From the human T2T-CHM13v2.0 reference genome, Homo sapiens, in assembly GCF_009914755.1 (NCBI RefSeq), contig NC_060947.1: DNA of 64,000 bases; one strand, given 5' to 3'. Within the stretch, counting starts at the first letter, position 1, and every line of letters starts with the position of its first letter. Shown in pieces: positions 14,547 to 16,828 of the stretch. Below the pieces are notes generated by a model. It saw only the letters and a list, made by a program, of their open reading frames with translations, was not told the origin of the DNA and did no database searches. The translations under genes and the position numbers were made by a program.

Positions 14547-14888
14547 GGCTCGGTGTGGTGGCTCACGCCTGTAATCCCAGCACTTTGGGAGGCCGAGGTG
14601 GGCAGATCACCTGAGGTCAGGAGTTTGAGACCAGCCTGACCAACAGGGAGAAACTCCATCTCTACTAAAAATACAAAATTAGCTGGGCATGGTGGCGCAT
14701 GCCTGTAATCCTAGCTTCTCAGGAGGCTGAGGCAGGAGAATCTCTTGAACCGGGGAGGCGGAGGTTGTGGTGAGCCGAGATCACACCATTGCACTCCAGC
14801 CTGGGCAACAAGAGCCAAACACTGTCTCAAAACAAACAAACAAAGAAACAAACAGATACACACACAAAACAAGCAAACAAACAAAAAC
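14547..14888 (+). mobile_element. AluSp-like element with AAAC-rich tail
   Basis: gcctgaccaacagggagaaac and aacaagag are Sp-type; degenerate TSD aaaa(c)ctctttt. Confidence 0.9.
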
Positions 14889-15464
14889 CCTCTTTTAACT
14901 CCATAGTTAAAACCATAGTTTTGCATTCCTAGCTGTCATGAGTGAAGCTGAGATTTAAAAAAGTAATATAGGACTATCACAAACCAAAGTTACATCTAAC
15001 ATAAATGTCCATTCATATTTCATTTGGCTGTGATTGTGTATTTGTGGCATGTATATCGGTGTGTAGGGAGGATGCGTGTGTACTCATACAATGTTAGGAT
15101 CGGCAGGACCATAGGAATCTCCTAATTCAAGCTCAATATTAACATATTCAATATACATAGGTTCGATATTTATAATATATACTGCTGATTGTGCAATAAT
15201 TCTTCACATTCCCATGGCCTTCTTTAAGAGGTCATCATAGCACACATCTAATTTTATCCTAACATAATTCTACGAGCTTGCTAGAGGGCATTATTATTAT
15301 TCTACTGAGAAAATGGGCAGCTAATTCCAAAGAGGTCCAGCTTTGGCTCAGTCTTACACGGCATGTGAATGGTGAGGTTGAGGATTAAAACCCAGATTCC
15401 ACATCCTTGCTCAGAGTACTTCATTCTGGCCCACAATCTCTAAAGCTACAACTGTCTAAATACA
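14703..15464 (+). repeat. Inverted repeat arm 1 (donor), 762 bp
   Basis: Reverse complement of 16067-16828, with 11 mismatches and no indels by manual block-by-block comparison. Confidence 0.97.
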
Positions 15465-15639
15465 CTGTCTACACTGTCTTGTATAATATCTGAAACAGTG
15501 CATGTTGGAGGGAGAGTTCTATTAAAATGATAATAGGAGTTAGTTAATTCTTTTTAAACTGTAACAATTAAAAGCATTTTGTGAGTGACCTAGGAACACG
15601 GCTCTGTATCATAACCCCTTTCTCTTTTCTTTTTTTTTA

Positions 15640-16033
15640 AAGTTTAGTTGAGATACAATTCACATACCACACAATGTACCCATCTAATGTGGACAATTTA
15701 ATGTTTTAAAGTATATTCCCAGTGTCCTACAACCATCATCAACATCTAATTTTAGAACAGCTTTATCCCCCCAATAAAAGAAATGCTGTGCCCATTAGCA
15801 GTCACTCCCTTTCCCCCTACCCTTCACCCCTAGCCCCTTGCAACCACTAATTGACTTTCTATCTCTATGAATTTGCCTATTCTGGACATTTCACATAAAT
15901 GGAATCCTACAATATGTGATCCTCTGTGACTGCCTTCTTTCTCTGAGCATGATGTAGCATGTATCAGCAGCTGAATAATACTTTTTAGAGCTGAATACTA
16001 TCCGGTTGTACGGAAATGCATGGATATCCTGCA
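15640..16033 (-). mobile_element. L1M 3' fragment (part 1; continues at 16993)
   Basis: gagatacaattcacatacc...caaccactaattgactttctatctctatgaatttgcctattctggacatttc. Confidence 0.85.
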
Positions 16034-16066
16034 TTTGTTTTTTTGTTTGTTTTTTGTTTGTTTGTT

Positions 16067-16828
16067 TGTATTTAGACAGTTGTAGCTTTAGAGATTGTGG
16101 GCCAGAATGAAGTACTCTGAGCAAGGATGTGGAATCTGGGTTTTAATCCTCAACCTCACCATTCACATGCCGTGTAAGACTGAGCCAAAGCTGGACCTCT
16201 TTGGAATTAGCTGCCCATTTTCTCAGTAGAATAATAATAATGCCCTCTAGCAAGCTCGTAGAATTATGTTAGGATAAAATTAGATGTGTGCTATGATGGC
16301 CTCTTAAAGAAGGCCATGGGAATGTGAAGAATTATTGCACAATCAGCAGTATATATTATAAATATCAAACCTATGTATATTGAATGTGTTAATATTGAGC
16401 TTGAATTAGGAGATTCCTATGGTCCTGTTGATGCTAACATTGTATGAGTATACACGCATCCTCCCTACACACCCATATACATGCCACAAATACACAATCA
16501 CAGCCAAATGAAATATGAATGGACATTTATGTTAGATGTAACTTTGGTTTGTGATAGTCCTATATTACTTTTTTAAATCTCAGCTTCACTCATGACAGCT
16601 AGGAATGCAAAACTATGGTTTTAACTATGGAGTTAAAAGAGGGTTTTTGTTTGTTTGCTTGTTTTGTGTGTGTATCTGTTTGTTTCTTTGTTTGTTTGTT
16701 TTGAGACAGTGTTTGGCTCTTGTTGCCCAGGCTGGAGTGCAATGGTGTGATCTCGGCTCACCACAACCTCCACCTCCCGGGTTCAAGCGATTCTCCTGCC
16801 TCAGCCTCCTGAGAAGCTAGGATTACAG
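16067..16828 (-). repeat. Inverted repeat arm 2 (copy), 762 bp
   Basis: Reverse complement of 14703-15464; paired coordinates sum to 31531 throughout. Confidence 0.97.

What the first reader, a model, noticed from the sequence alone, without database searches (positions are those of the whole stretch)
14703..16828. 762-bp, 98.6%-identical inverted duplication with a 602-bp spacer
Seen: 14703-15464 is the reverse complement of 16067-16828, with 11 substitutions and no indels. About 575 bp of each arm is non-Alu flank, so this is not merely two opposed Alus. Established: closely spaced near-identical inverted repeats are under-represented in the human genome and can form hairpins or recombine by NAHR. 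Inference: the spacer (15465-16066) may be a recurrent polymorphic inversion that short reads would miss. The L1M piece in the spacer is collinear with its continuation at 16993, so this haplotype shows the ancestral orientation.
Basis: partly seen in the sequence, partly recalled or inferred. Interest (0 to 1): 0.8.

Follow-up and report, generated by a model that had tools for sequence, protein, structure and literature searches.

The report
Alu-anchored inverted duplication in MID1 intron
A real 0.8-kb inverted duplicate inside an intron of the human MID1 gene arose when a stretch beginning in one Alu was copied backwards into a second, older Alu nearby; it is a tidy example of a known repair mishap, and there is no sign so far that the piece between the copies flips in people.

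Summary
14703-15464 is the reverse complement of 16067-16828 with 11 substitutions, no indels and a 602-bp spacer. The non-Alu part has only these two copies in the T2T genome.

Origin: arm 2 is the derived copy.
- The 953 bp at 16040-16992 interrupt an L1M that runs on collinearly in 10 of 19 paralogues.
- This insert consists of a T-rich Alu tail, arm 2, and the 5' half of an older resident Alu-B.
- The outer junction lies inside Alu homology, at 14703-14711. The inner junction has 3 bp of microhomology.
- This fits a homology-primed template switch or SDSA-type copy from inverted Alu-A, closed by end joining.

The differences are evolutionary, not assembly errors: 6 of 11 fall on CpG sites (P = 9e-8). 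I estimate the age at roughly 4-25 Myr, using recalled mutation rates.

The mismatches are clustered (P = 0.002), which hints at arm-to-arm gene conversion.

Inversion hypothesis: arms of this size can mediate NAHR. However, a T2T-based inversion catalogue has no call between chrX 5.77 and 14.29 Mb.

Verdict: an ordinary new member of a known kind, of modest interest.

The parts
14549..14883 (+). Alu-A, the source Alu: body plus a (CAAA)n-type tail. It is flanked by its own target-site duplication (14537-14548 and 14884-14897).
   Evidence: The left flank reads AAAAACTCTTTT and the right flank AAAAACCCTCTTTT. Identification as an Alu rests on 16 other Alu copies in the window matching it and on my own knowledge of Alu structure.
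14703..15464 (+). Arm 1, the source copy: the last part of Alu-A, its tail, the right-hand target-site duplication and 567 bp of single-copy DNA.
14703..14711 (.). Outer junction interval in arm-1 coordinates (16820-16828 in arm 2): the point inside Alu homology where Alu-B sequence gives way to copied Alu-A sequence.
   Evidence: Left of 14703 the two Alus differ at the ordinary level: 101 of 118 identical, an 8-bp indel, then 31 of 36 identical. From 14712 on, both arms share variants that other window Alus lack: T at 14712 against C in 16 of 16, T at 14717 against A in 14 of 16, and T at 14768 against C in 14 of 15.
15465..16066 (.). Spacer. It comprises 165 bp of unique DNA, the L1M piece 15630-16039 ending in the left target-site duplication of Alu-B, and the T-rich remnant of Alu-B's tail at 16040-16066.
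16040..16066 (-). Remnant of the A-rich tail of resident Alu-B, read as (TTTG)n on the + strand. The inner junction 16066/16067 lies at its end, with 3 bp (TGT, 16067-16069) shared by the tail pattern and the arm.
   Evidence: Read directly from the sequence. This stretch is extra relative to the L1M paralogues.
16067..16828 (-). Arm 2, the derived inverted copy of 14703-15464. It includes a copy of Alu-A's tail and of Alu-A's right-hand target-site duplication.
16829..16992 (-). The retained 5' part of resident Alu-B: left monomer, linker and the start of the right monomer. It is about 85% identical to the matching part of Alu-A.
   Evidence: pair I5, 85%; 101 of 118 identical, 8-bp indel in the linker, 31 of 36 identical.
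16993..17250 (.). Continuation of the L1M, starting with the right-hand target-site duplication of Alu-B (about 16995-17012).
   Evidence: The flanks read ATATCCTGCATTTGTTT on the left and ATATGCTACGTTTTATTT on the right, about 14 of 18 alike.

Best explanation
This is a fixed, several-million-year-old small inverted duplication made by a DNA-templated copying accident between two oppositely oriented Alus about 1.3-2.3 kb apart.

Starting state (shown by the anatomy): Alu-A (+ strand) sat with its own target-site duplications next to single-copy DNA. Alu-B (- strand) sat with its own target-site duplications inside an L1M.

Event (inferred):
- A break or stalled fork arose in the right half of Alu-B.
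- The end carrying Alu-B's 5' half paired with the homologous part of inverted Alu-A, at 14703-14711.
- Synthesis then ran about 760 nt through the rest of Alu-A, its tail, and 567 bp of flank, up to 15464.
- The new strand was rejoined to the other broken end inside Alu-B's A-rich tail, using 3 bp of microhomology.
- Net result: about 760 bp of inverted copy replaced the right half of Alu-B.

Since then the arms have gathered 11 substitutions, mostly at CpGs. The two perfect tracts (297 and 232 bp) suggest that some arm-to-arm gene conversion has occurred.

Today the repeat sits in a MID1 intron. It would fold the pre-mRNA into a hairpin of about 800 bp and is a possible, but unobserved, NAHR substrate.
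For: 1. Direction of copying. Alu-A has both of its target-site duplications in place, and the left one lies outside the repeat. Arm 2 carries only a copy of the right one.
2. Arm 2 lies inside an insertion. 16040-16992 interrupts an L1M whose two pieces are adjacent and collinear in 10 of 19 paralogues. The interruption is bracketed by a degenerate target-site duplication of about 18 bp.
3. Chimeric Alu. Identity jumps from 101 of 118 with an 8-bp indel, and 31 of 36, to 192 of 195 at 14703. Both arms share private Alu-A variants from 14712 on.
4. The inner junction lies in a (TTTG)n Alu tail with 3 bp of overlap.
5. The non-Alu part has only two copies in the genome.
6. The differences look like germline substitutions. 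6 of 11 fall on the 21 CpG-site positions (P = 8.6e-8), with 7 transitions, 4 transversions and no indels.
7. The junction pattern matches a described rearrangement class: one junction in inverted repeats, including Alus of only 85% likeness, and a second junction with 1-9 bp of microhomology in 14 of 24 cases (PMC11293582, passages read).
Against: No outgroup or second human haplotype could be examined, so the pre-duplication allele is inferred, not seen. The same end product could come from an RNA intermediate (see the rivals). The target-site duplication of Alu-B is degenerate (about 14 of 18 with one indel), and its left copy merges into the T-rich tail, so its exact limits are uncertain. 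Three bases of microhomology is weak on its own. The clustered mismatches (P = 0.002 for the two largest gaps) show that a simple 'copy once, then drift' history is incomplete.
Confidence: 0.72

Rival explanations
1. RNA-mediated origin. A + strand transcript running from within Alu-A to about 15464 was reverse-transcribed by the L1 machinery, primed on the T-rich strand of Alu-B's tail. The cDNA end then annealed to the homologous part of Alu-B, deleting Alu-B's right half (a retrotransposition-mediated insertion with target deletion).
For: The inner end of arm 2 abuts a T-rich run (16040-16066), which is where target-primed reverse transcription would start. The outer end is resolved by Alu homology. 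That cDNA can recombine with resident repeats is my recollection of cell-culture L1 studies and was not checked here.
Against: No poly(A) signal or A-run follows 15464 in arm 1. The downstream sequence there is not A-rich. The T-rich run has the (TTTG)n pattern of an old Alu tail rather than a plain poly(A). A TTTT run directly after Alu-A's tail (14893-14896) would, from recalled knowledge, stop a Pol III Alu transcript. A single retrotransposition of a whole Alu-A read-through transcript is excluded, because the outer Alu part is only 101 of 118 identical to Alu-A.
Confidence: 0.1
2. One reading: the arms recombine by NAHR, so the 602-bp spacer is a recurrent inversion polymorphism in present-day humans. 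This can coexist with either origin model.
For: Arms of 798 nt at 98.6% identity, with perfect tracts of 297 and 232 bp, lie within the published range of NAHR inversion repeats (654 bp to 24.2 kb). Nearly all such inversions were recurrent (PMC6748972). 28 Alu-mediated inversions separate human and chimpanzee, most under 1 kb (PMC2603318, sections read). The clustered mismatches fit arm-to-arm gene conversion, which would mean the arms do pair.
Against: There is no inversion call between chrX 5.77 and 14.29 Mb in the T2T-based catalogue with 44 sample columns, which does contain PAV calls of 40 bp to 2.4 kb on chrX. It is also absent from the 45 genotyped inversions (12 of 18 files searched). 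CHM13 has the ancestral orientation. The larger candidate list of 612 repeat-flanked inversions (PMC13629690) drew its reference-only candidates from inverted segmental duplications of 1-50 kb, which excludes 798-nt arms. Its table was not available to me.
Confidence: 0.1
3. Assembly artefact: arm 2 is a fold-back or chimeric-read error in the assembly.
For: None found.
Against: The arms differ at 11 sites, and 6 of those 11 lie on CpG positions (P = 8.6e-8). There is a 602-bp spacer. Arm 2 is embedded in a chimeric Alu with its own old target-site duplications. From general knowledge, a 2.2-kb structure lies within single long reads.
Confidence: 0.01

Closest known systems
Template-switch rearrangements seeded by inverted repeats (the DUP-TRP/INV-DUP class, BIR/MMBIR), as in PMC11293582
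   Same: One junction lies inside a pair of inverted homologous repeats and yields a chimeric repeat; Alus of about 85% likeness suffice. The second junction has a few bases of microhomology. The copied segment is inverted (one search compared).
   Different: The scale is hundreds of bases rather than tens to hundreds of kb. The return switch lands ahead of the departure point, so the result is a plain inverted duplication with a small deletion of about 170 bp of Alu-B, not a duplication-triplication. This one is old and presumably fixed, not a de novo pathogenic event.
Short-range template-switch mutations (four-point model) in great-ape genomes, PMC7954356
   Same: A stretch is replaced by the reverse complement of nearby sequence, which creates an inverted repeat.
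   Different: I saw only the search listing and abstract of that paper. That the catalogued events span tens of bases is my recollection. Here about 760 nt were copied, with Alu homology at one switch point.
NAHR-mediated polymorphic inversions flanked by inverted repeats (the HsInv set, PMC6748972) and Alu-recombination-mediated inversions (PMC2603318)
   Same: An inverted repeat more than 90% identical and longer than 654 bp flanks a short segment.
   Different: No second orientation has been observed for this locus.
Long, highly paired intramolecular dsRNAs predicted genome-wide (dsRNAscan preprint, PMC11838218)
   Same: The MID1-sense transcript of 14667-16864 folds with 784 of 798 in-register pairs. 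That places it in the rare class of stems longer than 300 bp and more than 96% paired: 2,018 of 5,134,754 predictions, most numerous on chrX.
   Different: 88% of that class is intergenic and most are formed by inverted LINEs. This one is intronic and mostly single-copy DNA. I could not see whether it is in their table: the one supplementary file held had no match.
Segmental duplications and large X-chromosome palindromes
   Same: A near-identical intrachromosomal inverted duplicate on the X chromosome.
   Different: The arms are 798 nt, below the 1-kb limit of the segmental-duplication track (the limit is as described). They are far below the multi-kb arms of the X palindromes, a size I recall rather than checked.

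Membership tests
Homology-plus-microhomology template-switch inverted duplication | An inverted copy lying close to its source, with only two copies in the genome | tested here: met
   only two matches in the whole assembly, 602 bp apart.
Homology-plus-microhomology template-switch inverted duplication | One junction inside a pair of inverted homologous repeats, leaving a chimeric repeat | tested here: met
   identity switches at 14703-14711 inside the Alu, and both arms share private Alu-A variants from 14712 on.
Homology-plus-microhomology template-switch inverted duplication | A second junction that is blunt or has a few bases of microhomology and no long homology | tested here: met
   complementarity stops abruptly at 15464/16067, and 3 bp (TGT) are shared with the tail pattern.
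Homology-plus-microhomology template-switch inverted duplication | An ancestral allele without the copy exists in an outgroup | not testable with these tools
   No primate genomes are held; one search states that this genome has no relatives here.
NAHR-mediated polymorphic inversion | Flanking inverted repeats more than 90% identical and at least about 650 bp long | tested here: met
   (798 nt, 98%); the threshold is taken.
NAHR-mediated polymorphic inversion | Both orientations of the spacer observed among haplotypes | tested here: not met
   Only published catalogues could be checked. There was no call at this place. Raw haplotypes could not be examined.
Retrotransposition product (target-primed reverse transcription, 3' transduction) | A poly(A) at the 3' end of the inserted copy, and a polyadenylation signal or A-run in the source | tested here: inconclusive
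   A T-rich run abuts arm 2, but it has the (TTTG)n form of an old Alu tail. No A-run or canonical signal is seen at 15464.
Retrotransposition product (target-primed reverse transcription, 3' transduction) | The whole insert between the target-site duplications derives from one source transcript | tested here: not met
   The outer 118 nt of the Alu are only 101 of 118 identical to Alu-A and carry an 8-bp indel, against 192 of 195 further in.
Segmental duplication (UCSC definition) | At least 1 kb long and at least 90% identical | tested here: not met
   The arms are 798 nt; the definition is as quoted.
Known structured RNA family | A match to an Rfam model at its gathering score | tested here: not met
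   0 matches in 12000-20000.

The most novel reading that the evidence does not exclude
The repeat is older than its 1.4% average divergence suggests. The two diverged patches (3 differences in 57 nt and 8 in 176 nt, about 4.7%) would mark its true age of tens of millions of years. The two perfect tracts (297 and 232 nt) would be recent arm-to-arm gene-conversion tracts. On this reading it is a miniature X-linked palindrome kept alive by concerted evolution, whose 602-bp spacer flips recurrently at a rate too low, or in a form too awkward, for the current catalogues to record. It would also give MID1 pre-mRNA one of the rare near-perfect 800-bp intronic dsRNA stems.
Probability: 0.12. Interest if true: 0.5.

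Novelty: new member of a known kind. Interest (0 to 1): 0.3.

Why it matters
This is a clean natural example, resolved to the base, of how two opposed Alus can seed a templated inverted duplication. It shows one junction by homology, one by microhomology, and a deleted half-Alu as the scar. At 798 nt the arms fall just under the 1-kb cut-off of segmental-duplication maps, so repeats of this size are not among the reference-derived candidates that inversion surveys test. If many such sub-kilobase inverted duplicates exist, they form an unsurveyed class of NAHR and dsRNA substrates. For MID1 itself nothing suggests a functional effect: the repeat is deep in an intron of the long 5'-UTR transcripts.

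Tried and rejected
1. Other copies of the arm. Whole-genome searches with 14898-15464 and with 15280-15464 found only the two local copies. My impression that 15290-15457 resembles an ancient MIR SINE could not be confirmed. A sensitive local BLAST against the window and 23 loci gave only the two self matches. This remains recollection only.

2. L1M collinearity with one long query. The Alu hits swamped the result, so I repeated it with the L1M piece alone.

3. Literature on this locus. The search 'MID1 + polymorphic inversion + inverted repeats' returned 1 paper, a conference abstract book that I did not open. The search 'MID1 + Opitz + Alu + breakpoints + intron 1' returned 10 papers, none about this repeat judging by title and abstract.

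4. HGSVC3 supplement (PMC12350169). Number searches hit only unrelated columns, and the file was cut when stored, so this was uninformative.

5. Papers and files I could not reach:
- Porubsky 2022 (Cell) is not held under its DOI.
- The dsRNAscan tables are not held apart from one small file.
Any of these may list this locus.

7. Rfam found nothing in 12000-20000.

8. Cruciform or hairpin DNA as a live mechanism. The single strand would fold (-998 kcal/mol, 776 in-register pairs). However, a 602-nt loop is about the distance at which the deficit of inverted Alu pairs fades (650 bp, PMC2603318). I therefore do not rely on this mechanism.

Full report
**Observation**

- The repeat finder reports arms 14667-15464 and 16067-16864: 798 nt, 98% complementary, 602 nt apart.
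- A position-by-position ungapped comparison gives 11 mismatches and no indel between 14703-15464 and the reverse complement of 16067-16828.
- The 36 positions further out carry 7 mismatches, which is ordinary likeness between two Alus. The near-identical tract therefore starts at 14703.
- In the whole 64-kb window there are 4 inverted pairs of at least 150 nt within 10 kb. The other three are 81-88% alike.
- The non-Alu part of the arm (14898-15464, 567 nt) has two matches in the 3.1-Gb assembly, both here. This is a local duplication of single-copy DNA, not a repeat family.

**Anatomy**

Arm 1 begins inside the right half of a + strand Alu (Alu-A, 14549-14883 with its tail). Alu-A is flanked by its own target-site duplication: AAAAACTCTTTT at 14537-14548 and AAAAACCCTCTTTT at 14884-14897.

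Arm 2 ends inside a - strand Alu. A gapped alignment of the two Alus shows the break in identity:
- Outer parts: 101 of 118 identical, with an 8-bp indel in the linker.
- Next 36 positions: 31 of 36 identical.
- From 14703 to 14897: 192 of 195 identical.

From 14712 on, both arms share variants that the 16 other Alu copies in the window lack:
- T at 14712, against C in 16 of 16.
- T at 14717, against A in 14 of 16.
- T at 14768, against C in 14 of 15.

The Alu at the outer end of arm 2 is therefore a chimera. Its 5' part (16829-16992) belongs to a different, resident element (Alu-B). The rest is copied Alu-A. The joint lies within 14703-14711.

**Which arm is the copy**

The spacer contains an L1M piece (15630-16039). 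I fetched 19 L1M paralogues with that piece and located both it and 16993-17600 in them:
- 10 of 19 have the two pieces adjacent on the same strand, with the second starting 75-105 bp after the end of the part matched by the first. The window's own 15956-16039 fills that gap.
- 3 of 19 have them on the same strand but 0.5-1.2 kb apart.
- 6 of 19 match the first piece only.
- None has them opposed.

The 953 bp at 16040-16992 are therefore an insertion into the L1M. They are bracketed by a degenerate target-site duplication: ATATCCTGCATTTGTTT and ATATGCTACGTTTTATTT, about 14 of 18 alike. The insert reads, in order:
- a (TTTG)n run of 27 nt, which is an Alu tail seen from the other strand;
- arm 2;
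- the 5' part of Alu-B.

A plain Alu insertion would have the Alu's right half where arm 2 now sits.

Arm 2 also carries a copy of Alu-A's tail and of Alu-A's right-hand target-site duplication, but not the left one. Arm 1 is therefore the source and arm 2 the derived copy.

**Mechanism (inferred)**

The structure has two parts:
- One junction by homology between inverted Alus.
- One abrupt junction at 15464/16067 in Alu-B's tail, with 3 bp (TGT at 16067-16069) shared between the tail pattern and the arm.

This is what a one-sided homologous invasion or template switch would leave. An end in Alu-B pairs with inverted Alu-A and copies about 760 nt. It is then rejoined by microhomology a little ahead of where it left, deleting Alu-B's right half.

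The same junction logic is documented on a much larger scale for DUP-TRP/INV-DUP rearrangements. There the first junction lies in inverted repeats, including Alus only 85% alike. The second junction had 1-9 bp of microhomology in 14 of 24 cases (PMC11293582, passages read).

An RNA-mediated route could give the same product: reverse transcription primed on Alu-B's T-rich tail, with the cDNA end annealing to Alu-B. I rate it lower for three reasons:
- Nothing A-rich and no polyadenylation signal follows 15464 in the source.
- The T-rich run has the look of an old Alu tail.
- A single read-through retrocopy of Alu-A is excluded by the 101-of-118 outer identity.

**Age and reality of the differences**

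- Of the 11 differences, 6 fall on the 21 positions that are part of a CpG in either arm (hypergeometric P = 8.6e-8).
- There are 7 transitions, 4 transversions and no indels. This is the signature of germline decay, not of assembly error.
- Divergence is 1.44% overall (Poisson 95% interval 0.72-2.58%) and 0.67% at non-CpG sites (0.22-1.57%).
- With recalled mutation rates of 0.5-1 x 10^-9 per site per year and two diverging arms, the point estimate is about 7-14 Myr, with a span of roughly 4-25 Myr. These rates were not checked here. I cannot say whether the duplication predates the human-chimpanzee split.
- It is far too diverged to be a young presence/absence polymorphism.

**An unexplained detail: the differences are clustered**

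- They lie at 14743-14759 (3 sites) and 15057-15232 (8 sites), separated and followed by perfect runs of 297 and 232 nt.
- Two gaps summing to that much arise in 0.23% of random placements.
- All 5 non-CpG differences lie within 153 nt. By my own approximate calculation, made outside any call, the probability of that is about 0.007.
- Three of the differences sit within 6 nt (15098, 15102, 15103) and may be one complex event.
- Arm-to-arm gene conversion of the two perfect tracts is the natural reading. Local hypermutability or error-prone synthesis at birth are alternatives. Only orthologues can decide between them.

**The inversion hypothesis**

A priori it is reasonable:
- Published NAHR inversions have flanking repeats from 654 bp to 24.2 kb, and nearly all are recurrent (PMC6748972, passages).
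- 28 Alu-mediated inversions, most under 1 kb, separate human and chimpanzee (PMC2603318, abstract and sections 7 and 15).

Nothing supports it here:
- In the T2T-coordinate table of PMC10150506 (44 sample columns; the abstract says 41 genomes), the chrX rows jump from 5,771,312 to 14,291,972. The table includes PAV calls of 40 bp, 1.3, 1.8 and 2.4 kb on chrX.
- No number beginning 10244-10248 occurs in that file, and the one beginning 10243 is 102,430,486.
- The 45 genotyped inversions of PMC6748972 have nothing here, in 12 of 18 supplementary files searched.
- The 612-candidate survey (PMC13629690) took its reference-only candidates from inverted segmental duplications of 1-50 kb, which excludes 798-nt arms. 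I could not see its table.

A common inversion is therefore unlikely. A rare or recurrent one remains open.

**What it does now**

- The annotation supplied with the finding places MID1 on the minus strand, with an alternative exon at 29990-30264. The repeat is therefore intronic to transcripts starting there or further upstream.
- The MID1-sense RNA of 14667-16864 folds at -1593.5 kcal/mol with 784 of 798 in-register arm pairs. The single DNA strand folds at -998.4 kcal/mol with 776 in-register pairs.
- Stems longer than 300 bp and more than 96% paired are rare in a genome-wide prediction: 2,018 of 5,134,754, most numerous on chrX, 88% intergenic (PMC11838218, passages).
- Intronic dsRNAs are removed by splicing and are not expected to reach cytosolic sensors (PMC12695637, passages).
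- I therefore expect nuclear A-to-I editing and no more. This is inference.
- Rfam has no match in 12000-20000.

**Verdict**

- The origin is reconstructed with fair confidence as an Alu-anchored templated inverted duplication.
- The inversion polymorphism is unsupported but not excluded.
- I found no description of this repeat in print. It is nonetheless a member of a known kind, so interest is modest.

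Noticed in passing
window 15098-15103 (arm 1) and 16428-16433 (arm 2): Three of the 11 arm differences sit within 6 nt (G/C, G/A, G/A). This looks like one multi-nucleotide event rather than three separate hits.
   Followed up: no
window 14760-15056 and 15233-15464: Perfect arm-to-arm identity over 297 and 232 nt, next to patches with about 4.7% divergence. This clustering is significant (P = 0.002) and may mark gene-conversion tracts.
   Followed up: partly
window 15290-15457 (and its mirror 16074-16241): The inner 170 nt or so of each arm looks to me like an old MIR SINE in antisense orientation. 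This is recollection only. Whole-genome and local searches found no other copy, and NCBI's masking list given with the finding does not cover it.
   Followed up: partly
window 15956-16039: The last 84 nt of the L1M piece before Alu-B did not align to any of the 40 genome-wide L1M matches, which all stop at about query position 326. This stretch seems to contain a short internal duplication or rearrangement of the L1M sequence.
   Followed up: no
window 14830-14883 and 16040-16066: Both Alu tails have evolved into (CAAA)n-type microsatellites. Alu-A's 54-nt tail, with its internal CA run, is copied without a single change or length difference into arm 2.
   Followed up: no
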